Under the pieces are notes generated by a model, which saw only the letters and a program-made list of their open reading frames with translations, was not told the origin of the DNA and ran no database searches. Positions 10,616 to 57,002 of a stretch of 64,000 nt of DNA are shown here, piece by piece. The stretch lies in the NCBI GenBank assembly GCA_964582405.1, contig CAZOSN010000005.1, positions 2,382 through 66,381 on the forward strand, given 5' to 3'. This DNA comes from an uncultured Oligoflexales bacterium. Lineage in GTDB: Bacteria > Bdellovibrionota_B > Oligoflexia > Oligoflexales > Oligoflexaceae. Position 1 is the stretch's first letter. The number at the start of each line of letters is the position of its first letter. Both the position numbers and the translations under genes were made by a program.

Positions 10616-10803
10616 CTAGTACCTCATCCAATAAGTTTTTCCCGATGAATGGCCGCCTTGCAGGCCCCATTGTGCTTGAAGAAGCGCTTCCCAATCCTCG
10701 CCGTAGCGCTGCTACGACTGTGGTTGGAAAACGTTTCTTCAAACCCAAGCTGGACCTACAATTCAGTCATTCATCGGGAAAAACTTATTGGACGAGGTAC
10801 TAG
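10616..10803. mobile_element. 188-bp near-perfect palindromic element (MITE-like or large REP-like)
   Basis: 36-bp terminal inverted repeats with one mismatch: CTAGTACCTCATCCAATAAGTTTTTCCCGATGAATG (10616..10651) and CATTCATCGGGAAAAACTTATTGGACGAGGTACTAG (10768..10803). Imperfect inverted symmetry continues inward to a central CGTAGC-GCT-GCTACG at 10702..10716, which is exactly the element midpoint. A partial second copy lies at 44072..44133. Confidence 0.6.
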
Positions 10804-17080: not shown

Positions 17081-17097
17081 TAGTCGGCCCTAACTCT

Positions 17098-17153
17098 TTG
17101 TCGCGTTGTCGCGTTGTCGCGTTGTCGCGTTGTCGCGTTGTCGCGTTGTCGCG
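17098..17153. repeat. perfect tandem repeat, 8-bp unit TTGTCGCG x7
   Basis: Read directly. Begins 18 nt after the carboxylase alpha stop and ends 48 nt before the ATG at 17202. Followed by the direct 10-mers GGAAAATTAC (17153..17162) and GGAGAATTAC (17168..17177). Confidence 0.95.
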
Positions 17154-17201
17154 GAAAATTACCTCGCGGAGAATTACTGGTTTGCCATCAGGAGTGCGGC
17201 C

Positions 17202-18137
17202 ATGAATTTCAACAGTTTCGTCAAATCGTCGGGTCTCAAGGTTCTGGCTATGGCAAGGCTTGAGCAATGCGAGTATGTGCTCGTTCTCTATCTTCTTAAT
17301 TCCGCAGTATCGGAGTTAGGCGACTTTATCACCACCGAGCGCGAGCTAGCCTCCTTAATCGGCTTTCCGGAAAAACAAGTTCGCGAGGCTATCAACAAGC
17401 TCAGCGAGCGCTTTATCATCACAGTCAAATTTGGCGAAATTCCGCATCAGATGAGTCACCGGCAATCGATTCGAATCGGGATTCAGTTTGATGTCAAAGA
17501 GTGGTTGCTAGATTTTGATAACGACGTGAACTCTCAGGATGCCATCGTTTTCCCATTTCGTCGGGGGCAAAACCTCCATGTCATTGGTCCCGAGACGGGA
17601 GCTAATGCTCGGATCACCAAATCGCTCCCAACATGGACGCGCGTTTACAATGAATTCACCCGCGACAAGACGCTGACCGAGGTTGAACAGAACAAGGCCG
17701 AAGCGGACGCCAAGGTTTTGGTCGAAACCCATCCTGTTGATCAGGTCATGCTTATGTTGCGTCATTTTGATGAACGGATTCCCACCTTAAGTCTCCTGGC
17801 AAGCTCGTGGCAGCATTTTCAGGAGGTCTTCGAAGAAGAAGTCCAAAAAGTAGACTTTATGGAAGCGCGTCACAAGCATCTGGAACTTGATGACAAACTG
17901 CGTGAGTCAGTCGCTCAGTGGCTTGAGAATAAAGAAGAGGTGAATCTTTCGAGCGAAGAGGTGGGTGTTCTCGAAATTCTGTTAAATCACAGACACCCCC
18001 GCAGGCAGCTTTTTTGGGCTTACCAGTCGCGTAGCCGGTACCCGCAGCTATTGCGATTCTTCGAAGAAAACGCAAAGCATATGCTGGCGGTAACTTCCAA
18101 TGGCATGGTCGTGAAAAAACGTCCCCATCAAGATTAA
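17202..18137 (+). CDS. hypothetical protein with a winged-helix-like N-terminus
   Basis: ATG at 17202 with AGGAG 8 nt upstream. The N-terminal segment LEQCEYVLVLYLLNS...ERELASLIGFPEKQVREAINKLSERFIITV looks like a wHTH fold; this is an inference only. The rest is unassigned. Confidence 0.6.
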   Translation: MNFNSFVKSSGLKVLAMARLEQCEYVLVLYLLNSAVSELGDFITTERELASLIGFPEKQVREAINKLSERFIITVKFGEIPHQMSHRQSIRIGIQFDVKEWLLDFDNDVNSQDAIVFPFRRGQNLHVIGPETGANARITKSLPTWTRVYNEFTRDKTLTEVEQNKAEADAKVLVETHPVDQVMLMLRHFDERIPTLSLLASSWQHFQEVFEEEVQKVDFMEARHKHLELDDKLRESVAQWLENKEEVNLSSEEVGVLEILLNHRHPRRQLFWAYQSRSRYPQLLRFFEENAKHMLAVTSNGMVVKKRPHQD

Positions 18138-32289: not shown

Positions 32290-32427
32290 ATAGTCCCTGG
32301 CGCGAAAGCGCCAGGGACGTATCCTGACGACCGCAGGGAGGAGGGATCTCCTTCGGGTTACCCTCCAAGTCGCTCCGATACGACTTTGGCGCTTTCGCGC
32401 CAAAGTCTAAATAGCTCTTGCGCTAAA
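32279..32427. repeat. REP/BIME-like pair of inverted hairpins flanked by 12-bp direct repeats
   Basis: TCTTGCGCTAAA occurs at 32279..32290, where it includes the glnN stop codon, and again at 32416..32427. Between the two copies lie hairpin 1, GTCCCTGGCGC-GAAA-GCGCCAGGGAC (32293..32318), and hairpin 2, GACTTTGGCGC-TTTC-GCGCCAAAGTC (32382..32407). Hairpin 2 is the inverted counterpart of hairpin 1, and every difference is stem-preserving. Confidence 0.7.
32293..32318 (+). terminator. 11-bp stem, GAAA-loop hairpin 3 nt after the glnN stop
   Basis: Read directly. No U-tract follows, so intrinsic-terminator function is uncertain. Confidence 0.4.
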
Positions 32428-38715: not shown

Positions 38716-41139
38716 ATGAATAACAGCCCAAAAAATATTGAGGCGGAGTCGGTTGCCAAAATTGAGGTAAACGGAGAAGATCTCAAGGCAGTCAAGCCGT
38801 TGTTTCAGAACCTAGACCGGATCATCTCGATTTGCTCATGGGCGAGTCTGATTCTTTTTGTCTGGGTTTTAAACTATAACAAGATTCAATCCAACGACAC
38901 CTGGATACATCTCCGCCTGGGCCAATGGATGGTTGAGACCAAGCAATTCATTACTCAAGATTTTTTTAGCGCTACCATAAATGGCAAGCCCTTTGTTGCG
39001 CATGAATGGTTGTCGTTTATTCTATTTTATTTGATCGCTGATAAAACGGGCAGCACGCTTACCTACTTTAAAATCATTGTGGCCATGGCGGTGGCGATTG
39101 GTTACGGGGGCATGCTATGGCGTCGCTACCGCGACTATTTCATAACTCTGCCAGCATTGGCCCTTCTAGCCTATATGTATTGCTTTCGGGTTCATGAAAG
39201 ACCGATGCTGTTTGGCAATCTCTGCGTTGCAACAATCATCATGACACTCGATTACTGGCGGCGTAACCCCAAGTCAAAGATCATTTGGGCGTTTGTTCCT
39301 TTGCAGATGTTCTGGGTCAATGTGCACGGGTCTTTTATGTTCGGGCCAATTTTTCTCGGCATTGCTGCTGCTGCAGAACTTCTGGCACGGACCAGCTATG
39401 TGCCCGCCTATTTTCAAAAAAACCGATTGGCCTTGACTGACATCAAAATGCTCCTGGCCGTTATGGGGGCCATGCTGCTTGCGTCTCTCGTTAATCCATA
39501 TGGATTCGAAATGATTCAGCACACGTTTGGGATGTTTTTCGGTCACAGCTATCTCAAGGAAAATATCCTTGAGTGGCAGAGTATCACCGAGGTCAGTCTG
39601 GAGAACTACTGGTATTTGGGATGGATTGTTTGGTTGTGCGCGACTTGGTATGTCACTTTTCGGAACAAAAGCTCATGGTCCTTGACAGATTTCGCGATGC
39701 TAAGCGCCGCGACTTATATGCCGTTTTCGGGAATGCGCTATGTCACGATCTCAACCATCATCATGACTCCGTTATTTTTTAAGCATGCGACTGCGGTTTT
39801 TGCAGCACCGGCGAGGCCCAGGATGTTTCTATGGGCAATTTTGCCACTAACAGCTTATATTGCGATCGTGGGCACGCCCTATAGTGCGGTCGAACACAAA
39901 CCCATCGGTGTCGGATTTAACATCCGCCAGGTTCCTTTCGATATTATCGACTTCATAAAGCGCAAAGAGCTCAAAGGTTCGATCATGACGAATTACGAGG
40001 AGGGGTCATATATTGCCTACTACCTCTATCCCAATGTCAAGGATGTTATAGACGCCAGAACCGATCTGTATGGGGACGAAAAATACAACGAGCATCGGCT
40101 GGCTTTTTACACGCTGCAGAATTTCAGAGCATATTTAACAAAATATAAGATCGATATGGTTCTCCTCAAATCGATTCCCAACTTTGATGTCTTGCGGCAG
40201 GACCTCCTTGCTGATCCCGAATGGCGCCTGGATATGATTGGGTTTTCACATGCATTATTCAGCCGCAAAGCAACGATTACGATTCCCCCCGATTCGACCG
40301 ATCTGGCGGGAAATTCGTCCCCTATGATCTTTGGGCCCCCCCCAGGGTTGAACGGAGGTCCAAGCTCGATCGCAGGTCTTGGCAGCAATCCGGTAGCTGC
40401 TGGTGTGCCATATGAGGTCGATCCTAATTCGCCCGAGATTAAGGCTATGTTTGCAAAGGAATTGGCAAAGATGGCTCAGGGGATTGCTGCCAGTGGCGGT
40501 TTAAATCCTAATGCTGCAACTTTCAATGGAGGAAACCCCGCCAGCAATGGAGCTGCTTCAAGCACCCCTGGTGCGGTGCCGGGCAACACTCTGGTAACAC
40601 CTCCAGGTTCGGCTCAACCTGGCAGTAATTTGCCTACGCCCGTCGCTACCAATGCGAGCAATGCAGCGCTTCCTGGCACATCAAGCTCGGCTAGTCCAAA
40701 CGGTATTTCGCAGGTTCCGGCAGCGAATCCTCAGGTTCCGGCAGCGAATCCTCAGGTTCCGGCAGCGAATCCTCAGGTTCCGGCAACGAATCCTTTAGCC
40801 GCGCCAAATTCAGCACCAGTTCCGACCAATTCGGCCGTGTCTGCGCCTTCGGTTGCCGCAAAACCCGCGAACGAAGCCTTTTGCGTCATAGGCCGCGCGC
40901 TTGGGCACTGTGACAGGCTGAAGGCTTGCGATGCAATATGCAAATTAACTGCCGATGAATTCACCAAGAAAGTTCCAGGCGACAAGCCTTGGTGCCAGAA
41001 TTTTGTCAGGACCTGCTCAGACAAGCACACGGCTTGCCAGATTTGTCCTTCGGTCTGCGCAGCCTATGGTCAGGTTATTGGTGATCTCAATAAGGAATTG
41101 TCACTAGCCTACCCAGGGGTGAGCCCATGCGGACAGTAG
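38716..41139 (+). CDS. polytopic membrane protein with a Pro/Ala/Asn-rich repeat linker and a Cys-rich C-terminal domain
   Basis: About 12 hydrophobic helices in the first ~400 aa. The linker contains NPQVPAA x4. The last ~95 aa hold 10 Cys residues (CVIGRALGHCDRLKACDAICKL...CQNFVRTCSDKHTACQICPSVCAAYG...SPCGQ). Confidence 0.65.
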   Translation: MNNSPKNIEAESVAKIEVNGEDLKAVKPLFQNLDRIISICSWASLILFVWVLNYNKIQSNDTWIHLRLGQWMVETKQFITQDFFSATINGKPFVAHEWLSFILFYLIADKTGSTLTYFKIIVAMAVAIGYGGMLWRRYRDYFITLPALALLAYMYCFRVHERPMLFGNLCVATIIMTLDYWRRNPKSKIIWAFVPLQMFWVNVHGSFMFGPIFLGIAAAAELLARTSYVPAYFQKNRLALTDIKMLLAVMGAMLLASLVNPYGFEMIQHTFGMFFGHSYLKENILEWQSITEVSLENYWYLGWIVWLCATWYVTFRNKSSWSLTDFAMLSAATYMPFSGMRYVTISTIIMTPLFFKHATAVFAAPARPRMFLWAILPLTAYIAIVGTPYSAVEHKPIGVGFNIRQVPFDIIDFIKRKELKGSIMTNYEEGSYIAYYLYPNVKDVIDARTDLYGDEKYNEHRLAFYTLQNFRAYLTKYKIDMVLLKSIPNFDVLRQDLLADPEWRLDMIGFSHALFSRKATITIPPDSTDLAGNSSPMIFGPPPGLNGGPSSIAGLGSNPVAAGVPYEVDPNSPEIKAMFAKELAKMAQGIAASGGLNPNAATFNGGNPASNGAASSTPGAVPGNTLVTPPGSAQPGSNLPTPVATNASNAALPGTSSSASPNGISQVPAANPQVPAANPQVPAANPQVPATNPLAAPNSAPVPTNSAVSAPSVAAKPANEAFCVIGRALGHCDRLKACDAICKLTADEFTKKVPGDKPWCQNFVRTCSDKHTACQICPSVCAAYGQVIGDLNKELSLAYPGVSPCGQ
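40711..40794 (+). repeat. in-frame tandem repeat, 21-bp unit CAGGTTCCGGCAGCGAATCCT x4 (the last copy has one mismatch)
   Basis: Read directly. Encodes the QVPAANP heptad repeats inside the 807-aa protein. Confidence 0.95.
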
Positions 41140-42458: not shown

Positions 42459-43928
42459 CTATAACAGGCACATAGTACGGCCTTGCGAACTTAGGGCTGC
42501 TCTGACAACATCAAAGCCATGATAGACAGGCTGAATGAGATCACCGTTTTGCCCCACAGCCAGAGGGCTACTGACAAAGCGGTGCTCGGGACCCATTCCT
42601 AGGGACCACCGATGAACCAATTTCCCTGTCGCAAAATCAAGGGCGACGATGCCATAGTCCTCGCGGACTTTGCTCAGATCTTGCGAAGAAGCATAGACAA
42701 GTCCTGTTTGAGTGCCGAGCCGAATGGTTGCTGTGGCCGCGACCTCGCGGTTATACCACACCAGGCTACAGCTCGACCGATCATCCGCGACATCGATTCG
42801 CATGATGCCCGGTTCCATGCCGCGAAGGTTGTCAAAGAGTCGCGGTGCATTGTACCAGTTCTGGACTATAATCGCGTTTCCGTAACCAATCACGGAGTTT
42901 TCGTTGGCGCTGCGTTCGGGTTCGAATAATGGAAACTTGCATACGAGTCTTTGATCGTCTGGGATCTGCGATCTCCGGTCAAGCACCACGAGGTTGATTT
43001 GGTGGTCGGCATTGTCGGTGAACGCCAGAAGATCCTGCCCGATAAGGGTCGGGGTCGAGCCAGAGCCCTCCCGCGAAATCGTGCCAGGCTTGGGATGACT
43101 CGCACGGTCGTAGCCATAACGAAAGCCGGGTTTGATGCCATCGTCATAGTGGAACTGATAGGCATGGTGGTCGGTAACGAGGTAGACGCCTGATTCATCG
43201 ACTGCCATCCCGTTCTCAATGATTTCTCCGCTAAGCATGAGCCACGCGAGGAGTATGCCCTGTTCGTTCATATAACCTATCGCCGCAGGGCGTGGGTCAG
43301 GGTCGCGGTTGCGGCCAAGGTCCATCAGCCAGTAGCCGCCATGAAAATCTGGATACACCTGCGCGATCTGGTGCCCTCTAGGAACAGCTGATTTGAGATC
43401 TATGGTTTTTACTATTTCTAGCCGTCTCTCCCTGGCCTTGATGAACAATACCCGGTTGTCGGCGTCTGCCACAATCATCCGGCCAGCACGGTCCATCAAG
43501 AAATAGGCAACATTCAAGGGGAGATCTTTGGTCATAAGATTCTTGATAGGCACATAGGCATAGGGGATTTTATGAAGAATCGCGTAAGTTTCCGCATCAA
43601 ACAAAGTCACGTAAAAATCAAAGCCTTGGGATCCGCGCGCCTGCGAACAAAACCCTAAGAGGTTTCCAGCATCGTCCGGCATAAAATTGAGGCATAACCG
43701 TGGTAAAGGCCATGAGCCGAGGCCAGGTTTTTGATGGACTATCACTGGTTCATTGTTGGGTAAGGGCCAATCTGTGACCGATGAGTTGTAGCTATCAAAG
43801 TGCATCCCCGATTGTTGGCTCAGTCCAGGATGTTGAGGAACATCCTTTGGGGCCAGAACCTCGGCAAAGCTTACCGAAACCAAAAACCAGGAAGCAAGGT
43901 GGATTATCCACTGATTCTGGGCTGCCAT
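42459..43928 (-). CDS. secreted hypothetical protein
   Basis: Preferred start at 43928 (MAAQNQWIIHLASWFLVSVSFA, signal-like). No motif recognised. Strand-rich composition suggests a beta-propeller-like fold; this is an inference. Confidence 0.55.
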   Translation of the reverse strand: MAAQNQWIIHLASWFLVSVSFAEVLAPKDVPQHPGLSQQSGMHFDSYNSSVTDWPLPNNEPVIVHQKPGLGSWPLPRLCLNFMPDDAGNLLGFCSQARGSQGFDFYVTLFDAETYAILHKIPYAYVPIKNLMTKDLPLNVAYFLMDRAGRMIVADADNRVLFIKARERRLEIVKTIDLKSAVPRGHQIAQVYPDFHGGYWLMDLGRNRDPDPRPAAIGYMNEQGILLAWLMLSGEIIENGMAVDESGVYLVTDHHAYQFHYDDGIKPGFRYGYDRASHPKPGTISREGSGSTPTLIGQDLLAFTDNADHQINLVVLDRRSQIPDDQRLVCKFPLFEPERSANENSVIGYGNAIIVQNWYNAPRLFDNLRGMEPGIMRIDVADDRSSCSLVWYNREVAATATIRLGTQTGLVYASSQDLSKVREDYGIVALDFATGKLVHRWSLGMGPEHRFVSSPLAVGQNGDLIQPVYHGFDVVRAALSSQGRTMCLL

Positions 43929-44071
43929 GGTGCCTCCGCTGCCGAATTGAACTTGACGATTGGGGACTATCGTAGCAATTGCAGGGGCAAGGATCAACTG
44001 CGGCAAACTCCGTCCCCAGGGCGATGGCATATTGATTTGCGTGACATTCTTCGTTTCGGATATCCCTCACC

Positions 44072-44133
44072 CCAGTACCCCGCCCAATAAGTTTTTCCCG
44101 ATGAAGGGCCGCCTTGCATTCCCCATCACGGGG
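44072..44133. mobile_element. truncated copy (left arm only) of the palindromic element at 10616..10803
   Basis: CCAGTACCCCGCCCAATAAGTTTTTCCCGATGAAGGGCCGCCTTGCATTCCCCAT aligns base for base, with a few substitutions, to 10617..10671. No matching right arm is nearby. Confidence 0.6.
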
Positions 44134-44150: not shown

Positions 44151-45599
44151 TTAACTCAAGGAATTCATCACCGCTTCCCATACCCTTCGGCCAATCAAGG
44201 GCTCCTCGTAGGCCTGGAGTGCGTCATTGTCTGCGGCTGGCGAGTCGCCATCATCTTCCTGAGATCCGTGCAGCCCGAGGTAAGTCATGGGTAGGACTCC
44301 GAGGATCTTTTTCGATAAGATCGTCGCTGTTAGCCAGGGAGAAAGGCCGATGCCATAGCTGATGTGCTCCTGGTTCTGCTCCATTCTGAACCTCGCATAG
44401 GGCTTTAGGACGCCTGCCGTTATTAGAAGAAGAAGTGGGCTGTCGGCGATGAGCCAGTCGATGGCCTGCTCGAGGTCAAAGGCATGAAAGGGGACGTCTT
44501 GCTCGGCATTCTTGCGCAAGCGAATCAGCGAGAATTGTATTGCGTTTGCAGCTTTTTCATAGCGCGTCAACCTACGACCTAGCTCATCATCTTGCGCGAC
44601 CAATTTAGCTGTATGTGCGATACCGTGGGCGGGTTGCAGCTTGTTTATAAAAGCCTGAAACGGTAAATCCTTGACGCTCGGGTATTGGTTATAATCGAAT
44701 GGATTAAAAAATTGGCGCTCCGGTAACTTGCCAGCCGTTTGAGGAGCACGGCATTTCAAGGTTAGCTCCGCAAAGTGGCGGCCGGATTTTTCCGCTACAT
44801 CCGAACTTAGGGTGTAGGCGAGGTGCTTTTCCCGTGCCGCAAGTTGAACTAGAGACTTTTGCAGCCGAGCATCACTCAGGCTCAAAGGTTTGCAGCCCTC
44901 TGCCGTCGCCGAATAATAGCTTTCGAGAACGCAGAAAAAATCGGCTTGTTCTCTTATATGCTTTTGGCATAAATCCCAAACCTGAGATTTCTGCCCCAAA
45001 TTCTGCTTTCTATTGCTGATATAGTGCCCGGATTCACCCATGAGCACTGGTATCAAATCGGCCCGGCCAATCGCTAGGCGGCGCTCGATATAATAGCGCC
45101 CGGCCAGGCTGATCTCGCAGTCATTGATATCGGACGAAGTCATGATCTGGTTCAACGTCTTGCGGGCTTCTAGCAAGTGCTGGCGAGAAGATATTTTTTG
45201 TTTCTGAGCGATTTCATCGATGCGTTGAGTAACCTGCGCAATCGCCTCTCGAAGTTCGACCATTAACTCACGATTTTCGTCGGTCAGTTTCAAAGGTTCG
45301 GTGGCAACCTGGGCCTCCAAGCTATGACCGCTATGTCTTCGCGACCTTGAATCTTGTGCAAGCCACTCGAAGGACCAGAATGGTAATAAGGAGTTAAGCA
45401 TATCGACCAGTCTCTGGGGGGGCATGTCTTGCCCGCTCTTTTGAGACCTTCTTGCCAAAGCTAATGGCCAATCTATGCGAAAGCCATTGCCTTCAAACTT
45501 GAGCCAGGGTGAGCTAGCCAAACAGGAATCGACTAAAGCCCGCAAGACGGGGCTGAGACCTGCGACTTCGATTGTTGAGTTATGTTTATGATCAATCAT
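44151..45599 (-). CDS. hypothetical protein, co-operonic partner of the 1293-aa SNF2 ATPase
   Basis: 482-aa ORF starting 10 nt after the SNF2 stop. No signal peptide, TM helix or catalytic motif recognised. Confidence 0.65.
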   Translation of the reverse strand: MIDHKHNSTIEVAGLSPVLRALVDSCLASSPWLKFEGNGFRIDWPLALARRSQKSGQDMPPQRLVDMLNSLLPFWSFEWLAQDSRSRRHSGHSLEAQVATEPLKLTDENRELMVELREAIAQVTQRIDEIAQKQKISSRQHLLEARKTLNQIMTSSDINDCEISLAGRYYIERRLAIGRADLIPVLMGESGHYISNRKQNLGQKSQVWDLCQKHIREQADFFCVLESYYSATAEGCKPLSLSDARLQKSLVQLAAREKHLAYTLSSDVAEKSGRHFAELTLKCRAPQTAGKLPERQFFNPFDYNQYPSVKDLPFQAFINKLQPAHGIAHTAKLVAQDDELGRRLTRYEKAANAIQFSLIRLRKNAEQDVPFHAFDLEQAIDWLIADSPLLLLITAGVLKPYARFRMEQNQEHISYGIGLSPWLTATILSKKILGVLPMTYLGLHGSQEDDGDSPAADNDALQAYEEPLIGRRVWEAVMNSLS

Positions 45600-45609
45600 G
45601 ATCCATGCC

Positions 45610-48600
45610 TTAATGAGGAAGTAATAGGCGGCGCGAAAACGTCCGGTCGGGATCGACCAAGCTTATGAAACCATCCTGATCCTTCAAGAGCTCAGAGGCA
45701 TCACTAGCGGTTGCTATACCCAAAAGATCTTCTGACAAGCTACGCTTCTCTGCGAAAATCCGCTGAATGGATTGTTCAATTGAGGAAAGGCCAGTTAGCG
45801 TGTGAACAAAAACGGTGCGCTCTTGGCCCATACGATGCGTGCGATCGGTTGCCTGATCTTCGACAGCCGGATTCCACCAGCGATCGAAATGAATCACCCG
45901 GTCAGCTCCGGTTAGATTTAAGCCTACACCTCCCGCCTTAAGGCTCAGGATCAAAATGGGGCATGATTCGCCAGCCCCCCTGAGTCTGCAATTTTCATTA
46001 AATTCGTCAACCATAGCGAGGCGAGTCTCAGCTCCTAAGCCACCGTGGATGAAGGGGATCGTTTCGTGTCTACCAAAACTCAAGGCGCGGCGGATCATGT
46101 CTGCAGCTCCCAAATACTGCGTAAATATTAGAATCCCAGAGCTTTGGCCGCGCAAAGATTCCACCAACTCGCTCAAGGCGCTCAACTTGCTGCTACGTGC
46201 GAGCCAACCTGCAAAGCCGGTAGCCTTGAATCGCTTGCGCATGCGATTTAGGACCAGGGCACGTATTTTGCCCGTTGCCGCTGCCGATGGTCCGTCGATC
46301 TCAGCCAATATATCGGCTTCGTCTTGCTCACCATAGAAAAGATCTGGATGAATGCAGATCTGCTTGAGGTGTAGAATCGCCTTTAAAAACATCGACCGTC
46401 GCGCAAAGGCTTTAATTTCAGAGGTATCCTCGCTCAGGACAGTTTCTACAACCAGTTCATAGAGTTGGGTCTGTTCTTCCGAGAGCTCATAAATCTGATC
46501 CGAAAAAATTTTATCCGGGAGACCGAGTGCCACCTCGGGATCGGATTTGCGCCGGCGCAGGACCACGGGATCCAAACACTCTCTGAGCGGCGCAAGTAAC
46601 AGCAATTTCTGCTCTGAGGATCGTGCAAGCGTCGTATACTTGTGAAAGTCCCCTTGAGCTCCGAGGTACCCTGGATTCAACCAATGAATGAGCGACCATA
46701 GCTCGGACGCGCGGTTTTCGATCGGTGTGCCGGTCAAAACCAACCGATGGCGGCAAATGATCTGATTGGCAGCTTCCGTTACCTGCGCGTCGGAATTTTT
46801 TATAGCCTGAGCCTCATCGAGGACGACGAGATTCCATTCTCTTTTTTTGATTTTGTCAAAATCGAGCCTTAAGCGCGGGTAGGTCATGAGGCAAATGTCG
46901 GCGTCCTCCACCGGCGCTTCACTCTGAACCGCGAACCGTAAACCGGGGGCAAAGCGCGCGAGTTCGCGGCGCCAGTTAAATAAAAGAGATTTAGGCATTA
47001 CCACCAGGGATGGAAGGTCCGAGGACTTCATGATTCGCAGCAGCGCGATCGCTTGCAGGGTTTTACCTAGCCCCATTTCATCAGCAAGGCAGACGCCCAA
47101 GCCAAGATGAAATCTGATATAGCTCCAGGCCACGCCATGGGCTTGATAACCTCGCAAGATGGGCTCAAGATCGGCTACGTGATCCTTCAAGAGCCTGTCT
47201 GCCAAAGGAGCAATGGCTGCGCTATCTAGATCTGTGAGGATCGGCGCTATGCGAATGCCAAGCTGCTGGATGTAGTCTTCCGGCGCTATCTGAGGATCCG
47301 TTGCAGTAATGGCGGCGCGATGAACAGACCAAATATCGACCAACCGGACGTTTTGAAACTTCGCGTAGACTCGCTTTCTAAGGATGAACAGGTCGGTCTT
47401 GGCAAGGTAGACAGCAGCCTCGACCACGAACCCATTCGGTAACCGATAATAGCCATCCTTGGACTTTTGGGCGCCAAACCAGTCCGCCTCGTCAACCTCA
47501 TGACCATCGATTTCAAAATAAGCTCGGGCTTCAAAACGAAGGTCATTGCCGAATTCTGCCAGCAGAATGCTTACGTTATCGCTACTCGATAGGTCCTCTG
47601 ATGGCGCGATTCGGCTGCGATCTTTGAGGAAGTTCAGGATGCTAATCACATTGCTTTTGGCCTCTGCCTTGCCAGCTTCCACGAATTGAACCTTGATCCG
47701 CACATCATCAACCGCGAGGCCGCCATCAATCACAGCAATAGTGCGGGGATCCCAGTAATTTGAGGCATAGGGTGCGGGCTTTTTAGTTACCATAGCTTGG
47801 ACCGGCCATGGTGAAACGCCAAGGAACCAGTCATAGGTTTGGGACCAAGCAGAAGCGCTGGATTGAATGTCAACCTCAGTCCCAACAGCGAGATTAAACC
47901 GATCCCAATCCTCGGTTGAAAGCTGCAAATACCCGCGACTCAGGACTTCGGGACTAAGGAATAATTCAGGCTTGCTGATCATCGCGAAGGCCATATCGAC
48001 AGTTTGCCAAAGCCTGCCATGCGGCCATTGTAGTTGATGAGCCTCGTCGCCGTGAAAATAAGATATGGTAGACGCTGGGTCCGGTGCTGTTTCAAACATT
48101 TGATTGAGGCGTTGGTAGCGCGCCAAGACCGGAATCTTGCGCTGCGAGATTGTTCGTAGTGCCGCGACTTCGGGCTTTATAACACCCGGATCGATCCGCA
48201 CCGAGCCGTCTTTGGTGCCACCTTGCGCCACAGAGACAGAACGCACCAAGATGGCTGAACCCTCGCTGATCGGACGAGTCATTACCTGCTCGCTCAAAAC
48301 GGCCATGACCGACTCACCGCTGAAGCGCTTTGACCAAACCCTTGCGAAGTCTGGCAAATCGAGATGAACATTGTGATAAAGGCGGTTTGCCAAGGCTCGA
48401 TCGACCAGCGATCGCCAAATCATGCTAATGGACTGGATCATCTGGTAAGAGCGTGGCTTGGCTATTGCGATAGCGCCTTGGTCTGAATACCCCCAGCGAG
48501 ACACTGTGTCCGCTTCCATAGACACGCCTTCGGGCCAGACTGCCCCTAAGCTCTGCGCCTCGCAAAGGCTTGCGGCCATGTTCAAAAGCTGAGCGCCGCC

Positions 48601-49491
48601 GATATCAGGCAATAGGCACCAGCTAGACTGCTTAGTCCAATACTCATGCAGCTCTTTTGTACTTCCGACGTTAAGCCTATGGCCAACCTCGGTCAGCCCT
48701 TGTTGAACGAGTAAATTCGCTTCTCGCAAATGTTGATAAAATGCCGACCAGCTTTGCTTTGGGAACGAAAATTGTTGGCCCAGGCGATACTCAGTGGCAA
48801 GCTTCAAGGCCTGATTTAGCTCGTCGATCCCTGCCAGTGCAAAGGCACGGTTATTTTCAGCCTGATCCACCGCTTCGTGTAAGCTCTGCACGACCTCCAG
48901 GATTTTCCGAAATGGCTCGGTCAATAAACCAGGCGCCAAAATTTCTAAGCCCAGCAAGACCTCCACATCCCGCCGTCCCTGGGTCAATACCTGACCCCAC
49001 ATCTTATGGGTACGCCACCTGGGATTCTTAGCACATCGCGCGAGCTGCCCACGCGCCAGGTTTTGCCAGGCAACCGGAGTATCCCCATCGGTCAGCATGT
49101 GATCAATGACGGCAGCGCTAGGTAAGGGAAGCCCCGAGATAAGAACCGGATAGCGTACCCGGAAGCTCGCAGGTTGTTCCACGAACAACCTGATTTCGGG
49201 CAGCAGAGCAGCTAATTTACCGTTTTTGCCCCAAAAACTTTCTGCCTGCTTAGTGTATTGCGCGGCCGTAATGCCTTTGATACCTAAACCCGAAAACACC
49301 GGCAAAACTACGACCCTACCAAAGCTGTCTATGCCGCCATGTATAGTTAGGTCTTTAATATTGCGGAGATAAATTGCCTTCGGCGGTTCGGCTTTGGACT
49401 TTTGGCTCGAACCTCTCTTGGGCAAGTCGTGGGCTAACGGTTGTTCGGTTTCCATAGGCCTACCATTCAAGTTATTGACCAGTGGATCCAT
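45610..49491 (-). CDS. SNF2-family ATPase/helicase with an unassigned N-terminal region of about 780 aa
   Basis: SNF2 core motifs are LRGYQAHGVAW, LADEMGLGKTLQ (Walker A near residue 809), VLDEAQAIKN and LTGTPIENR. Helicase C-terminal motifs are ILSLKAGGVGLNLT and QATDRTHRMGQ. Confidence 0.85.
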   Translation of the reverse strand: MDPLVNNLNGRPMETEQPLAHDLPKRGSSQKSKAEPPKAIYLRNIKDLTIHGGIDSFGRVVVLPVFSGLGIKGITAAQYTKQAESFWGKNGKLAALLPEIRLFVEQPASFRVRYPVLISGLPLPSAAVIDHMLTDGDTPVAWQNLARGQLARCAKNPRWRTHKMWGQVLTQGRRDVEVLLGLEILAPGLLTEPFRKILEVVQSLHEAVDQAENNRAFALAGIDELNQALKLATEYRLGQQFSFPKQSWSAFYQHLREANLLVQQGLTEVGHRLNVGSTKELHEYWTKQSSWCLLPDIGGAQLLNMAASLCEAQSLGAVWPEGVSMEADTVSRWGYSDQGAIAIAKPRSYQMIQSISMIWRSLVDRALANRLYHNVHLDLPDFARVWSKRFSGESVMAVLSEQVMTRPISEGSAILVRSVSVAQGGTKDGSVRIDPGVIKPEVAALRTISQRKIPVLARYQRLNQMFETAPDPASTISYFHGDEAHQLQWPHGRLWQTVDMAFAMISKPELFLSPEVLSRGYLQLSTEDWDRFNLAVGTEVDIQSSASAWSQTYDWFLGVSPWPVQAMVTKKPAPYASNYWDPRTIAVIDGGLAVDDVRIKVQFVEAGKAEAKSNVISILNFLKDRSRIAPSEDLSSSDNVSILLAEFGNDLRFEARAYFEIDGHEVDEADWFGAQKSKDGYYRLPNGFVVEAAVYLAKTDLFILRKRVYAKFQNVRLVDIWSVHRAAITATDPQIAPEDYIQQLGIRIAPILTDLDSAAIAPLADRLLKDHVADLEPILRGYQAHGVAWSYIRFHLGLGVCLADEMGLGKTLQAIALLRIMKSSDLPSLVVMPKSLLFNWRRELARFAPGLRFAVQSEAPVEDADICLMTYPRLRLDFDKIKKREWNLVVLDEAQAIKNSDAQVTEAANQIICRHRLVLTGTPIENRASELWSLIHWLNPGYLGAQGDFHKYTTLARSSEQKLLLLAPLRECLDPVVLRRRKSDPEVALGLPDKIFSDQIYELSEEQTQLYELVVETVLSEDTSEIKAFARRSMFLKAILHLKQICIHPDLFYGEQDEADILAEIDGPSAAATGKIRALVLNRMRKRFKATGFAGWLARSSKLSALSELVESLRGQSSGILIFTQYLGAADMIRRALSFGRHETIPFIHGGLGAETRLAMVDEFNENCRLRGAGESCPILILSLKAGGVGLNLTGADRVIHFDRWWNPAVEDQATDRTHRMGQERTVFVHTLTGLSSIEQSIQRIFAEKRSLSEDLLGIATASDASELLKDQDGFISLVDPDRTFSRRLLLPH

Positions 49492-49551: not shown

Positions 49552-49584
49552 TCAGATTCCGCTCAGATTCCGCTCAGATTCCGC
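49552..49584. repeat. perfect tandem repeat, 11-bp unit TCAGATTCCGC x3
   Basis: Read directly. Lies 61-93 nt upstream of the SNF2 start codon. Confidence 0.95.
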
Positions 49585-49660
49585 GTTCGGTCATTCCGCG
49601 TTTCTGTGGTAAAAGCGAGCATCAGAATCAAACAGAAACGCGGAATGACCGAACGCGGAA
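49579..49660. repeat. perfect 29-bp inverted repeat with a 24-nt spacer
   Basis: TTCCGCGTTCGGTCATTCCGCGTTTCTGT (49579..49607) is the exact reverse complement of ACAGAAACGCGGAATGACCGAACGCGGAA (49632..49660). Confidence 0.95.
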
Positions 49661-53801: not shown

Positions 53802-56800
53802 TTGCCAGCCCATCGCCCCTCCATAACGTTCGATCTCGAGGCCGAATTCCGTGAGCCCCTTGCTAGGTTGCTTGAGCGTGAACTGGCTAAAGAGTATGTT
53901 TCTCCCATAAAATCCAAAGGAAAGCGTCTATTAGATCAGGCTCTGATCTCAATAAAAGTTGAGGGTGAGCAGATTTCTGGTACGGTCGATGACGGCAGGC
54001 ATGAGTACAAGTGGCGCCTGACGCTCCCTCTCTATGATCTGACCGATGGTCATAGTTATGCGCGCTGCGATTGTCAGACGCGGACTTATGATCTTGAAAA
54101 AGAGCGATGCGCCCACCTCTATGCCGGTGAGGCGGCCCTGCTTCAGCACCTGACGGAGGCCGCGCTCCCGAATGTGGCGGATGATTGGCGCGCAGGGTTT
54201 GCGCATGCGGCAGCCCAGACCTCGCAGCCGATTAAGCCTGAGGTGGAGTCCCAGATCGTTTGGGTGCTTGACCCCAGCCTCGTTCCTCGCCCGGTGCTAA
54301 GGAACCGAGCCGAGTTAAATATGTCATTGGGACAGAAACTGCCTTGGTCTGATTTTCTTGCAAGGGACGAACTGTGGCTTGCACCGGTTGACCAGTTGGT
54401 TGCAGCGCGTGTCAGAGCCGGCGAAGAGACGGCGATCCTGTCAGCCAAAGTGAAAGGGGAGGGATACACGGTCGATGCGGTAGGTGCCCTGCTTGATCTA
54501 AAACAGCATGGTGGCATTCGCTTTGCGGTGCATGGCAAGATCGCGCCAATCAGAAGCGCGGTGCTGGGGCTCCGTTTTGCATCGGCTGTTCAAGGGTTTC
54601 GAGTACTCGTCACGCTTGATGGCATGGAGTTGAGTTCTTACCGGTTTGAGCCAGGCCGGGGATTGATTGGAATTGATGCAGATCATAGCGTGGTATTGGT
54701 TTCGCGTCTCAGCGAGCGATGGGAACCCTTAGTTCGACGGTTTATCGGAGGCAAAGAGACGATACCTGCCCATGGACGCGAAGCTTTGTTCCAGTATTTA
54801 GCCTCACTTGAAAGCGAACTACGGCTTGACTGCGAAGCCATTATTCCAGTCAGCGACCAGGCACCACAGAATAGCTACATCATGAGATTGAACCCACTGT
54901 CTCCAAAAATCTTGAAAGTCGAATTGCTTGTTCGTCCAGTACCCATGGGGCGAAGCTTCTTGGTCGGAATGGGGCCTGATTTCGCGCTTGATTTTCGCGA
55001 TCCCAAAAATCCAAAGCAGATCATGCGCGATAAAAATGCCGAGCTTGGTCAAGCAAGCCGGCTGGTTAGGTTTTATGAGCTCCATGGGGCGTCTGGCGAA
55101 AACGATTGGGAAGAGCCGGTGTATCTCCTGCGCGATGACCGGATTTTTGAATTTTTAGCGCAATTGGAACAATCTGCCGCTGGTCACTCGTTATCGATCG
55201 AGTGGCCTGTGCAGAGCAAAAGGCTGGCCGTCAAACCAGAGGCCCAAGGATTGCCGAGGGCTGTGGTGGCGAGCGGAGATAAGGACTGGTTTAGTGTGGC
55301 CATCGAAATCGATGGGGAAATTGTGCGCTTAGAAGAAATTATTGCCGCAATCAAGCACCGCAGGCGATTCATTCAATTGGCTTCGGGAGCCTATCAGCGG
55401 ATATCAAACCTTTATCTGGATCATCTGACTGCTCTTCATGAAAGGTTAGGACTGGCTGGCCGCGAGGAAATTCGGGTGGCCCATGTGGTTCCCCTGCTAA
55501 GTCAGATTACCGAAGAGGGAACCTACGAGCTCGCGTGGGCCTCGCAAGAGGCTGAGGTATGGCAACGGTACTGCACGCGCAACCGCACCGCAGTGGCGCC
55601 GCCGAGTGATCTTAACGCAAAGCTAAGGACCTATCAGGAAGATGGGGTTCGTTGGCTAATGGACCGCGAACGCTGGGCGCGTGGCGCGCTGCTCGCGGAT
55701 GATATGGGGCTTGGCAAGACTGTTCAGGCGATAGCATTGCTACTAGCGTCCGCCGCTCATGGGCCATCGCTTGTGATCGCACCAACCTCGTTGGTCCTAT
55801 CCTGGCAAGATGAGATCCGAAAATTTGCGCCTACCTTGATTCCCCGTGACTACCGAACACTGCGCTCAGGATTGGATCGTGCGGGTCCGAGGGATGTTGT
55901 TGTCGCATCTTATGGGTTGATCTTATCTGATCAAAAGCGGTTTCAGGGGGTGTCTTGGAATATTCTTATCTTGGATGAGGCGCAAACTCTAAAAAACAAC
56001 ACCAGCAAGAGCTGGTTGTCTGTGAGCTGCATAAAGGCGCGGTTTACGTTAGGGCTTTCGGGGACGCCAATCGAGAATAACTTGATGGAATTGTGGAGTA
56101 TATTCCATTTGCTCGAACCGGGGCTCTTAGGTGATCTTGAAAGGTTCAAGGAAGACTTTGTGCACCCGATCCAACTCAAGCGCGACGAATCAAAGGGACG
56201 GCTTCTGAAGCGGCTTTTAAAGCCATTTCTTTTGCGAAGGCTTAAGGCGGATTACCTAAGCGAGCTGCCAGACAAGACCGAGCAGAATATCCTGGTAGAG
56301 ATGCCGATGCAGGAGCGCACCTTGTATGAGGCATTGAGGTATGAGGCGATTAAGAATCTGGCGGAAAAATCTGACAAGCAAGAAGCAGATGAGCAGAAAG
56401 ACAAGCAGCAGATTCTGGCAGCCTTGACAAGACTCAGGCTGTGCGCCAGCCATCCCAAACTCATTGATACCGATTGGGAGGGGACGAGCGCAAAGCTCAT
56501 TGCCCTGGTTGAGCTCGTGGAAAAAATAGAACAGGCGGGTCAGCAGGCGTTAATTTTTAGCCAGTTTGTGGGACACCTCGACCTCATCGAGGTTGCCCTG
56601 AATGCTCGTCATCTGAGCCTTGGTCGATTAGACGGTAGCATGCCGGCTGCAGAAAGGGCCAAAGTTGTAGCGAGTTTCCAGCGGCGCGAATTTTCCTTCT
56701 TTCTTATTTCGCTTAAGGCGGGCGGAACGGGACTCAATCTTACCAACGCAGCGGCCGTGATCCATATGGATCCGTGGTGGAATCCAGCAAGCGAAGATCA

Positions 56801-57002
56801 AGCTACTGATCGTGCCCATAGAATGGGCCAAAAGCAGGCGATTACAATCTATCGCCTGGTAACAGCCGGAACGGTAGAAGAAAAAATCCTCAAACTGCAT
56901 TCCGGAAAGCGCCGGCTGGCGGAACGAATTTTGTTGGATAAGGCGCCGAAGGACTGGCGAGTTTCCGAGCTTGCGAATCTCCTTACCCAGTCAGATCTTT
57001 GA
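53802..57002 (+). CDS. SWIM zinc-finger SNF2-family ATPase/helicase
   Basis: TTG start with GAGG upstream. SWIM motif CDCQTRTYDLEKERCAH. SNF2 core motifs LRTYQEDGVRWL, LADDMGLGKTVQ, ILDEAQTLKN and LSGTPIENN. Helicase C-terminal motifs ISLKAGGTGLNLT and QATDRAHRMGQ. Confidence 0.85.
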   Translation: MPAHRPSITFDLEAEFREPLARLLERELAKEYVSPIKSKGKRLLDQALISIKVEGEQISGTVDDGRHEYKWRLTLPLYDLTDGHSYARCDCQTRTYDLEKERCAHLYAGEAALLQHLTEAALPNVADDWRAGFAHAAAQTSQPIKPEVESQIVWVLDPSLVPRPVLRNRAELNMSLGQKLPWSDFLARDELWLAPVDQLVAARVRAGEETAILSAKVKGEGYTVDAVGALLDLKQHGGIRFAVHGKIAPIRSAVLGLRFASAVQGFRVLVTLDGMELSSYRFEPGRGLIGIDADHSVVLVSRLSERWEPLVRRFIGGKETIPAHGREALFQYLASLESELRLDCEAIIPVSDQAPQNSYIMRLNPLSPKILKVELLVRPVPMGRSFLVGMGPDFALDFRDPKNPKQIMRDKNAELGQASRLVRFYELHGASGENDWEEPVYLLRDDRIFEFLAQLEQSAAGHSLSIEWPVQSKRLAVKPEAQGLPRAVVASGDKDWFSVAIEIDGEIVRLEEIIAAIKHRRRFIQLASGAYQRISNLYLDHLTALHERLGLAGREEIRVAHVVPLLSQITEEGTYELAWASQEAEVWQRYCTRNRTAVAPPSDLNAKLRTYQEDGVRWLMDRERWARGALLADDMGLGKTVQAIALLLASAAHGPSLVIAPTSLVLSWQDEIRKFAPTLIPRDYRTLRSGLDRAGPRDVVVASYGLILSDQKRFQGVSWNILILDEAQTLKNNTSKSWLSVSCIKARFTLGLSGTPIENNLMELWSIFHLLEPGLLGDLERFKEDFVHPIQLKRDESKGRLLKRLLKPFLLRRLKADYLSELPDKTEQNILVEMPMQERTLYEALRYEAIKNLAEKSDKQEADEQKDKQQILAALTRLRLCASHPKLIDTDWEGTSAKLIALVELVEKIEQAGQQALIFSQFVGHLDLIEVALNARHLSLGRLDGSMPAAERAKVVASFQRREFSFFLISLKAGGTGLNLTNAAAVIHMDPWWNPASEDQATDRAHRMGQKQAITIYRLVTAGTVEEKILKLHSGKRRLAERILLDKAPKDWRVSELANLLTQSDL

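What the first reader, a model, noticed from the sequence alone, without database searches (positions are those of the whole stretch)
44151..49491. Giant SNF2 ATPase with an unassigned ~780-aa N-terminal region, in an operon with a 482-aa orphan protein
Seen in the sequence:
- The ORF at 45610..49491 (-) is 1293 aa.
- The SNF2/helicase core occupies only the last ~500 aa. Its motifs are LRGYQAHGVAW, LADEMGLGKTLQ (near residue 809 by coordinate arithmetic), VLDEAQAIKN, LTGTPIENR and QATDRTHRMGQ.
- The first ~780 aa carry no motif I can assign.
- Its stop lies 10 nt before the start of a 482-aa ORF (44151..45599). That ORF has no signal peptide, TM helix or recognisable motif, so co-transcription is very likely.
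- The pair is bracketed by repeat structures: an ATTCCGC array plus a 29-bp inverted repeat upstream, and a truncated palindromic-element copy immediately downstream.

Established knowledge: SNF2 ATPases are DNA translocases. They are used in housekeeping roles (RapA/HepA) and as components of anti-phage systems (DrmD in DISARM, ZorD in Zorya).

Inference: an SNF2 gene with a large novel N-terminal region plus an orphan partner is a plausible undescribed DNA-surveillance, defence or remodelling module.
Basis: partly seen in the sequence, partly recalled or inferred. Interest (0 to 1): 0.72.

Follow-up and report, generated by a model that had tools for sequence, protein, structure and literature searches.

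The report
Rare SNF2 motor with orphan partner
A DNA-motor protein of the well-known SNF2 type carries about 640 residues that match nothing described and is always encoded beside a fast-evolving orphan protein; the rare pair is real and conserved, and may be an undescribed DNA-surveillance module, though its function is unproven.

Summary
The 1293-aa SNF2 ORF (45610..49491, -) and the 482-aa ORF (44151..45599, -) exist, 10 nt apart, and the flanking repeats are as described.

- **No annotation.** SNF2 residues 1 to about 640 and the whole partner match nothing in Pfam, NCBIfam, PADLOC, PHROGs or PDB sequences. This was tested with single sequences and, against PDB, with family profiles.
- **Partial match.** Residues about 641-778 form a pre-ATPase module shared with a wider SNF2 set. 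It faintly resembles PF08455.
- **Rarity.** An N-terminal profile found only 26 proteins among 1.84 billion representatives.
- **Conserved pair.** In all 15 distinct loci where the downstream DNA is available, the SNF2 gene is followed at -4 to 76 nt by a positional partner homologue.
- **No catalytic signature.** Neither the partner nor the N-terminal region shows a conserved catalytic residue set.
- **Motor type.** The ATPase core is SSO1653-like (PDB 1Z63, E 9e-98). It is not RapA, ZorD, DrmD or DpdE by the curated cut-offs.
- **Context.** Neighbours vary. Five of 15 loci lie beside PADLOC candidate defence genes, against 0 of 15 control loci. The window's own neighbours look ordinary.
- **Structure.** AlphaFold models were too poor to use.

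Verdict: a real, new variant of an SNF2 two-protein module. A defence-like role is plausible but unproven.

The parts
45610..49491 (-). SNF2-family ATPase gene, 1293 aa
   Evidence: ORF, translation, Pfam PF00176 186 bits and PF00271 62 bits. Full-length homologues at 48-52% identity.
49375..49491 (-). Variable N-terminal leader, aa 1-39, rich in basic residues, Ser and Pro
   Evidence: Poorly aligned and variable in length across homologues.
47572..49374 (-). Family-specific N-terminal region, aa 40 to about 640. Conserved blocks include DLTxHGG, LPLPSxAVIDH, PGLLTExFR, KPxVAA and WPxGRLWQ.
   Evidence: No Pfam, NCBIfam, PADLOC, PHROGs or PDB sequence match. About 12 proteins with a full-length or near full-length match among 1.84 billion representatives. 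No internal repeats.
47158..47571 (-). Pre-ATPase module, aa about 641-778 (LRFEARxYFEIDG ... YLAKTDxFILRKRVYAKF)
   Evidence: Shared with a wider SNF2 set, P0019-P0030, at E 1e-20 to 1e-31. hhalign gives 75.6% probability against residues 502-560 of the window's second SNF2, which is where that protein shows a faint PF08455 hit.
46339..47148 (-). SNF2 ATPase lobe 1, aa 782-1051, with Walker A GLGKT (K810) and the DEAQ box
   Evidence: Pfam PF00176, E 9e-55. Closest solved structure is 1Z63, SSO1653, E 9.4e-98.
45826..46188 (-). ATPase lobe 2 (Helicase_C), aa 1102-1222, with motif VI QATDRTHRMGQ
   Evidence: Pfam PF00271, E 9.6e-17.
45613..45825 (-). C-terminal tail, aa 1223-1293, carrying the family-conserved motif GF(L/I)xLVDPxRxF
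   Evidence: Conserved in all full-length family members, including the distant P0017 and P0018.
44151..45599 (-). Orphan partner gene, 482 aa, predicted mostly helical
   Evidence: ORF. Three members in the word-indexed search of 5.8 billion proteins. Positional homologues in all family loci.
45450..45578 (-). Partner conserved N-module, aa 8-50 (VSGxSPxL ... SPWL ... IDW)
   Evidence: Alignment A5: W44 is invariant, and W32, I42 and D43 are nearly invariant.
44265..44483 (-). Partner conserved C-module, aa 373-445 (DxLIxxSPLLxLLxxGxL ... YGLGLSP ... LGxLP), followed by an acidic tail in most members
   Evidence: Alignment A5, hydropathy and charge counts, and a collinear weak hit in the distant L026 partner.
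49552..49660 (.). Upstream repeat cluster 61-169 nt before the SNF2 ATG: three 11-bp TCAGATTCCGC units and a perfect 29-bp inverted repeat with a 24-nt spacer
   Evidence: No comparable repeat upstream of the SNF2 gene at the six homologous loci checked. Possibly a local operator or 5'-UTR hairpin, which is inference only.
44074..44126 (.). Half-copy of the MITE-like palindromic element at 10616-10803, lying between the partner stop and the next ORF
   Evidence: 53 nt, 89% identity. Unrelated to the upstream repeat.

Best explanation
The two genes encode a self-contained, two-protein SNF2 DNA-translocase module.

Shown:
- The motor is an intact SSO1653-type SNF2 ATPase.
- It is fused to a family-specific N-terminal region of about 640 aa plus a pre-ATPase module.
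- It is always co-encoded, tightly and on the same strand, with a fast-evolving partner.
- The partner keeps only short N- and C-terminal conserved modules and shows no conserved catalytic residue set.

Inferred:
- The N-terminal region and the partner form the target-recognition and regulatory part of the complex.
- The motor does the work by ATP-driven translocation on double-stranded DNA, displacing or remodelling a bound protein or nucleoprotein complex rather than cutting DNA.
- The module is an accessory, patchily distributed DNA-surveillance or conflict system (defence-like), not a core housekeeping factor.
For: - Motor intact and conserved.
- Pair conserved in 15 of 15 loci with downstream sequence, at gaps of -4 to 76 nt.
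- Divergence of the N-terminal region and of the partner is correlated (Mantel r = 0.83, p = 5e-4).
- Evolutionary rate gradient: the core is 45-69% identical, the N-terminal region 20-41%, the partner 13-29%.
- Rarity: 26 hits among 1.84 billion representatives, and the clusters looked up hold one or two members.
- Five of 15 loci lie beside PADLOC candidate defence genes. PDC-S01 (AAA_14/DUF4143) occurs in L001, L007, L026 and L031, and PDC-M02A/B in L005. L026 also carries HipBA and XPB+DUF790.
- None of the 15 CLC-anchored control loci carries such genes. Fisher p was about 0.02 on the first 11 loci.
- Flanking genes differ at every locus.
Against: - No nuclease or other effector domain was detected. 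The partner's only conserved polar residue is D43.
- The window's own neighbourhood (CLC channel, GlpG, ThiI, efflux genes) looks like ordinary chromosome, with no PADLOC hit. L003, L009 and L010 are also in housekeeping contexts.
- GC content is not anomalous.
- The pair is absent from the plasmid, phage and IMG/VR collections.
- PDC systems are candidates, not validated defences.
- The control set was chosen after the fact and is small.
- Presence or absence among close relatives could not be tested.
Confidence: 0.4

Rival explanations
1. A lineage-specific housekeeping remodeller. The SNF2 motor, targeted by its N-terminal region and partner, recycles or displaces RNA polymerase, a repair complex or a nucleoid protein. 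This is RapA- or Mfd-like logic in a Bdellovibrionota or Oligoflexia-type lineage.
For: - Ordinary chromosomal context in the window, L003 (HPPK, PdxA, UvrA-like), L009 (GrpE/DnaK) and L010.
- No effector domain.
- The core is closest to SSO1653 and to ISWI and INO80 remodellers.
- No GC anomaly.
- Not found on plasmids or phages.
Against: - Extremely rare for a core gene: 26 representative clusters in about 15 billion proteins.
- The partner evolves very fast.
- A third of the loci sit beside defence-candidate genes.
- It is not RapA by score: 29.6 bits against a cut-off of 576.
Confidence: 0.3
2. A remodeller or chaperone for bacterial histone chromatin. Bdellovibrionota use Bd0055-type histones, so the SNF2 motor together with an acidic-tailed partner would slide or evict histone-DNA filaments.
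For: - The neighbouring CLC gene's best matches are Bdellovibrionia and Oligoflexia MAGs at 55-57% identity.
- Bd0055 homologues occur in 67% of Bdellovibrionota genomes (PMC10627809).
- The motor is closer to eukaryotic ISWI and INO80 than to RapA.
- Six of 10 partners have an acidic tail.
Against: - The taxonomic placement rests on one gene.
- No histone-like ORF was found in the window or the family loci. The query sequences were recalled from memory, so this is a weak test.
- The family is far rarer than Bd0055.
- There is no direct link of any kind.
Confidence: 0.05
3. Cargo of a mobile cassette delimited by the flanking repeats.
For: Repeats lie on both sides of the pair. A MITE-like half-copy sits downstream.
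Against: - The two repeats are unrelated in sequence.
- There is no integrase or transposase nearby.
- The six homologous loci checked show no comparable upstream repeats.
- No plasmid, phage or viral copies were found.
Confidence: 0.04

Closest known systems
SSO1653-type SNF2 ATPase core (Sulfolobus solfataricus Rad54-like, PDB 1Z63)
   Same: It is the best solved-structure match to the motor, E 9.4e-98 over both lobes. All SNF2 motifs are present.
   Different: The crystallised SSO1653 construct is the ATPase core alone. It has no counterpart of the N-terminal region of about 780 aa or of the partner.
Bacterial SNF2 proteins of the PF08455 (SNF2_assoc) / NF058637 (SCO1167/SCO6262) type, including the window's second SNF2 at 53802..57002
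   Same: The core scores 407 bits against NF058637. The pre-ATPase module aligns with the PF08455 zone of the second SNF2 at 75.6% hhalign probability.
   Different: It is far below the family cut-off of 1200 bits. There is no PF08455 hit even at E = 10. Residues 1-640 are unrelated, and a conserved partner is not a listed feature of those families.
ZorD with ZorC (type I Zorya)
   Same: Both involve an SNF2 motor acting with a non-enzymatic soluble partner. The PADLOC ZorD model scores 294 bits on the core, and ZorD structure 8qy7 matches at E 1.5e-50.
   Different: NCBIfam ZorD scores 215 bits against a cut-off of 1500. No zorA, zorB or zorC is present. The partner has no ZorC hit, and no nuclease domain is detectable.
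DpdE (Dpd) and DrmD (DISARM)
   Same: Similarity of the SNF2 core in PADLOC models.
   Different: NCBIfam scores are 61-74 bits against cut-offs of 500-950. No dpd or DISARM partner genes are nearby.
RapA/HepA
   Same: A bacterial SNF2 ATPase with an N-terminal targeting region that remodels a protein-DNA complex without any nuclease.
   Different: 29.6 bits against a cut-off of 576. RapA is not among the best 60 PDB matches shown. RapA also has no dedicated partner gene.
Eukaryotic ISWI and INO80 remodellers with accessory subunits
   Same: After SSO1653 they are the next best core matches, E 1e-55 to 1e-62. They share the logic of a motor plus specificity subunits.
   Different: The accessory parts share no homology, and no substrate is known here.

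Membership tests
SNF2/SWI2 superfamily ATPase | PF00176 and PF00271 above their gathering scores | tested here: met
   186.2 bits (cut-off 24.9) and 61.7 bits (cut-off 23.5).
SNF2/SWI2 superfamily ATPase | Intact motifs I (GxGKT), II (DExx), III (TGTP) and VI (QxxxRxxRxGQ) | tested here: met
   GLGKT 807-811, DEAQ 892-895, TGTP 920-923, QATDRTHRMGQ 1213-1223. All are invariant in the three closest homologues.
SNF2/SWI2 superfamily ATPase | DNA-dependent ATPase and translocase activity | not testable with these tools
   Needs biochemistry.
RapA/HepA (NF003426) | Score at or above the curated cut-off of 576 bits | tested here: not met
   29.6 bits.
Type I Zorya ZorD (NF041790) | Score at or above the curated cut-off of 1500 bits | tested here: not met
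   215 bits, core only.
Type I Zorya ZorD (NF041790) | Adjacent zorA, zorB and zorC genes | tested here: not met
   No PADLOC hit on the partner or the neighbouring ORFs.
DISARM DrmD (NF038317 / NF038318) | Score at or above cut-offs of 610 / 950 bits, with drmA, drmB, drmC and methylase neighbours | tested here: not met
   61 and 74 bits. No such neighbours.
Dpd DpdE (NF041062) | Score at or above the cut-off of 500 bits, with a dpd gene cluster | tested here: not met
   61.7 bits. PADLOC DpdE models match the core only, residues 771-1058. No dpd genes nearby.
SCO1167/SCO6262 helicase (NF058637) | Score at or above the cut-off of 1200 bits | tested here: not met
   406.8 bits, residues 771-1057 plus lobe 2 only.
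PF08455 SNF2_assoc-containing SNF2 proteins | PF08455 domain N-terminal to the ATPase | tested here: inconclusive
   No Pfam hit at E up to 10. However, hhalign gives 75.6% probability and E 2.4e-5 between the pre-ATPase module and the PF08455-like zone of the second SNF2.
Anti-phage defence system (generic) | Recurrent location beside defence genes (defence islands) | tested here: inconclusive
   Five of 15 family loci lie beside PADLOC PDC-S01 or PDC-M02, against 0 of 15 control loci. The window's own locus has no such neighbour.
Anti-phage defence system (generic) | Recognisable effector (nuclease, NADase, pore-former or similar) | tested here: not met
   No domain hit and no conserved catalytic residue set.
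Anti-phage defence system (generic) | Protection against phage or plasmid on expression | not testable with these tools
   Needs an experiment.

The most novel reading that the evidence does not exclude
The pair is the first dedicated ATP-dependent remodeller for bacterial histone chromatin. An ISWI- or SSO1653-like motor with a lineage-specific targeting region and an acidic-tailed partner would act on Bd0055-type histone-DNA filaments in Bdellovibrionota. Nothing I ran excludes this. The only support is a tentative taxonomic placement, the type of motor and the acidic tails.
Probability: 0.04. Interest if true: 0.9.

Novelty: new variant of a known kind. Interest (0 to 1): 0.52.

Why it matters
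SNF2 motors gain their specificity from accessory domains and subunits. This locus has about 640 aa of fused sequence and a partner of about 480 aa that match nothing in the domain, family or solved-structure sequence libraries searched, yet the two are strictly co-inherited.

If the module is defensive, it would be an SNF2 system with no visible nuclease. That would point to protection by translocation or protein eviction. If it is housekeeping, it would be a lineage-specific chromatin or transcription remodeller in a phylum known to use histones.

Either way, the two new families are small enough to characterise fully, with about 20 known sequences.

Tried and rejected
- **AlphaFold2 models.** I modelled the N-terminal region (pLDDT 40.7) and the partner (pLDDT 47.7) from 3-sequence alignments. 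Both were too poor. Foldseek against PDB gave only noise, with no hit at E <= 0.001.
- **PDB profile searches.** The N-terminal profile gave 0 hits. The partner profile gave only coiled-coil noise.
- **Pfam scan of every family member.** Nothing.
- **PHROGs.** Nothing.
- **Genome and metagenome scans with narrow patterns.** Nothing.
- **Synteny test through the CLC neighbour.** The relatives are only 55-57% identical and share no other neighbour, so island versus core could not be decided.
- **Homology between the partner and the N-terminal region, and internal repeats.** None.
- **The 523-aa ORF downstream (42459..44030) as a third component.** It has no homologue at loci L001-L025.
- **A SEC-C/DUF7986-like protein as a third component.** It lies downstream in L026 and L029 but also occurs in a control locus.
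- **Histone ORFs near the pair.** None found, though the queries were recalled from memory.
- **Literature.** No description of this pair turned up.
Full report
**1. The observation**

The window holds a 1293-aa ORF at 45610..49491 (-) and a 482-aa ORF at 44151..45599 (-). The SNF2 stop (TAA) and the partner ATG are separated by 10 nt. No promoter-like or terminator-like site lies at that junction.

Pfam places SNF2-rel_dom at 782-1051 and Helicase_C at 1102-1222, with nothing upstream.

The upstream repeats are real:
- three copies of the 11-bp unit TCAGATTCCGC at 49552-49584;
- a perfect 29-bp inverted repeat at 49579-49607 / 49632-49660.

None of 100 shuffles contained the repeat arm.

The downstream 'truncated palindromic element' is a 53-nt, 89% identical copy of one arm of a MITE-like palindrome at 10616-10803.

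The two flanking repeats are unrelated to each other. The six homologous loci I checked show no comparable upstream repeat. I therefore treat them as local features, not as parts of the module.

**2. What is and is not assignable**

The whole SNF2 protein and the partner were scanned against Pfam, PADLOC and NCBIfam. The N-terminal 778 aa was scanned against Pfam at E up to 10. PHROGs was also searched.

Family profiles were searched against all PDB sequences. Every member of both alignments was scanned against Pfam.

Nothing matched residues 1 to about 640 of the SNF2 protein or any part of the partner.

Residues about 641-778 behave differently. This module also occurs in a wider group of SNF2 proteins, P0019-P0030. 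A profile of it aligns with residues 502-560 of the window's second SNF2 (53802..57002) at 75.6% hhalign probability and E 2.4e-5. That is where the second protein has a faint PF08455 SNF2_assoc hit. So the truly novel fused region is about 640 aa, not 780.

The motor is closest to the Sulfolobus SSO1653 core (1Z63, E 9.4e-98). ISWI and INO80 come next, and ZorD (8qy7) matches at 1.5e-50.

Against curated NCBIfam cut-offs it is not any of these:

| Family | Score (bits) | Cut-off (bits) |
|---|---|---|
| RapA | 29.6 | 576 |
| ZorD | 215 | 1500 |
| DrmD | 61 / 74 | 610 / 950 |
| DpdE | 61.7 | 500 |
| SCO1167 family | 407 | 1200 |

**3. How rare the family is, and whether the pair is conserved**

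The word-indexed search of 5.8 billion proteins found few relatives:
- three proteins with this N-terminal region;
- three partners, even when a profile was used.

The exhaustive HMMER search of 1.84 billion representatives with the N-terminal profile found 26 proteins. About 12 match over the full or near-full N-terminal region. The rest share only the pre-ATPase module.

I fetched the encoding contigs for eleven of these proteins. A metagenome scan added seven more loci.

In all 15 distinct loci where DNA downstream of the SNF2 gene is available, the next gene is on the same strand at -4 to 76 nt. It encodes a protein of about 380-532 aa. Wherever precomputed Pfam data exist for these proteins, they show no hit. 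All but one are recognisably homologous to the window's partner. The most distant, in L026, gives a weak but collinear hit to both conserved modules: E 0.035 among 1011 ORFs, and the best hit outside the training set.

Pairwise divergence of the N-terminal region and of the partner is correlated (Mantel r = 0.83, p = 5e-4). That fits inheritance as a unit, although shared phylogeny alone would also produce it.

The rates of change form a gradient:

| Part | Identity to the window's protein |
|---|---|
| ATPase core | 45-69% |
| N-terminal region | 20-41% |
| Partner | 13-29% |

**4. Anatomy of the new parts**

The N-terminal region is conserved in blocks along its whole length. These include DLTxHGG, LPLPSxAVIDH, PGLLTExFR, KPxVAA...KK and WPxGRLWQ. 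It has no internal repeats.

Across nine members the invariant polar residues are only H51, K452, K711 and D756. That is not a recognisable catalytic set.

The partner is predicted to be mostly helical. It has three parts:
- a conserved N-module (VSGxSPxL...SPWL...IDW);
- a variable middle;
- a conserved hydrophobic C-module (SPLLxLLxxGxL...YGLGLSP...LGxLP).

The C-module is followed in six of ten members by an acidic tail. The hydrophobic segment is not consistently hydrophobic enough to be a transmembrane helix. D43 is the partner's only conserved acidic residue.

The SNF2 C-terminal tail motif GF(L/I)xLVDPxRxF is conserved even in the most distant full-length members.

My inference is that the partner and the N-terminal region are non-enzymatic recognition and regulation parts, and that the motor supplies the only catalytic activity.

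**5. Genomic context**

In the window the neighbours look like ordinary chromosome:
- a metallophosphoesterase;
- unknown ORFs;
- a CLC channel;
- GlpG;
- a second SNF2;
- ThiI;
- efflux genes.

None of them has a PADLOC hit worth noting. GC content is unremarkable. The pair has no relatives in the plasmid, phage or IMG/VR collections.

The CLC neighbour's best matches are Bdellovibrionia and Oligoflexia MAGs at 55-57% identity. The lineage is therefore probably Bdellovibrionota-like, but this rests on one gene. The relatives are too distant to test synteny.

Across family loci the flanks all differ. Several hold housekeeping genes (L003, L009, L010). Five of 15 lie beside PADLOC phage-defence candidates:
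- AAA_14/DUF4143 genes, which are PDC-S01, in L001 (four copies on both sides of the pair), L007, L026 and L031;
- PDC-M02A/B in L005;
- in addition, L026 carries HipBA and an XPB+DUF790 pair directly upstream.

Homologues of these candidate genes are absent from all 15 CLC-anchored control loci, which cover a similar total length. On the first 11 family loci the count was 4 of 11 against 0 of 15, Fisher p about 0.02.

This signal has limits. PDC systems are unvalidated candidates. The control was chosen after the fact. AAA_14/DUF4143 genes can be multi-copy in some genomes.

**6. Interpretation**

Shown: an intact SNF2 motor, a novel fused region, an obligatory co-encoded orphan partner, and extreme rarity.

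Inferred:
- the two proteins form a complex;
- the complex works by translocation and eviction rather than by cutting DNA;
- the module is an accessory, conflict-type system.

I put 0.4 on the defence-like reading and 0.3 on a lineage-specific housekeeping remodeller with RapA- or Mfd-like logic. The histone-chromatin remodeller idea and the mobile-cassette idea each get about 0.04-0.05.

The histone idea draws on published work showing that Bd0055-type histones are major chromatin components, with homologues in 67% of Bdellovibrionota genomes (PMC10627809). I found no histone-like ORF near any locus, but that test was weak.

**7. Novelty and score**

The SNF2 motor is a known kind. The fused N-terminal region and the partner family appear undescribed. 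The one NCBI copy with names on record is annotated 'DEAD/DEAH box helicase' with a 'hypothetical protein' partner. The literature searches found nothing matching.

I rate it a new variant of a known kind, with interest about 0.5. It is a clean, small and fully conserved two-gene module with over 1100 residues of unannotated protein. However, bacterial SNF2 proteins with unexplained accessory parts are common, and no function has been demonstrated.

Noticed in passing
window 53802-57002 (+): A second SNF2 gene (1066 aa) lies 4.3 kb from the first, on the opposite strand. It matches a PADLOC DpdE model almost end to end (495 bits) and has a faint PF08455 hit, but no dpd genes are nearby. In L009 a similar SNF2 (1045 aa, PF08455 E 6e-7) sits directly upstream of the family SNF2 gene.
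   Followed up: partly
window 10616-10803 and 44074-44126: A MITE-like palindromic element (52-nt arms, 87% complementary, 84-nt spacer), with a half-copy in the gap between the partner and the next ORF.
   Followed up: partly
window 17090-17153: A tandem array of the 8-bp unit TTGTCGCG, about 8 copies, at the start of the ORF 17106..18137.
   Followed up: no
window 40690-40815: A 21-bp tandem repeat (CAGGTTCCGGCAGCGAATCCT, about 4-5 copies) inside the 807-aa ORF 38716..41139. The ORF has no family match, and the repeat encodes a 7-aa protein repeat.
   Followed up: no
window 32285-32415: An inverted repeat with 39-nt arms (79% complementary, 53-nt spacer) just after the ORF that ends at 32289.
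   Followed up: no
L001 482-1468, 5034-5750, 11799-12938, 13110-14291; L007 8196-9614, 10426-11553; L026 2345-3442; L031 5849-6364: AAA_14/DUF4143 genes (PADLOC candidate PDC-S01) recur next to the SNF2-partner pair in four independent loci. In L001 they flank it on both sides. They might be more than island neighbours.
   Followed up: partly
L026 16359-17822 and L029 12082-14817: A SEC-C/DUF7986-like protein lies 0.5-0.9 kb downstream of the partner in two distant family loci. A fragment also occurs in control locus L019, so the link is uncertain.
   Followed up: partly
L028 931-1329 and L029 4267-4665: A 133-aa ORF about 1.2 kb upstream of the SNF2 gene matches positions 332-410 of the N-terminal profile (E 5e-6). 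It may be a duplicated fragment of the N-terminal region.
   Followed up: no
window 42459-44030 (-): A 523-aa ORF directly downstream of the partner on the same strand has no family match and no homologue at loci L001-L025.
   Followed up: partly
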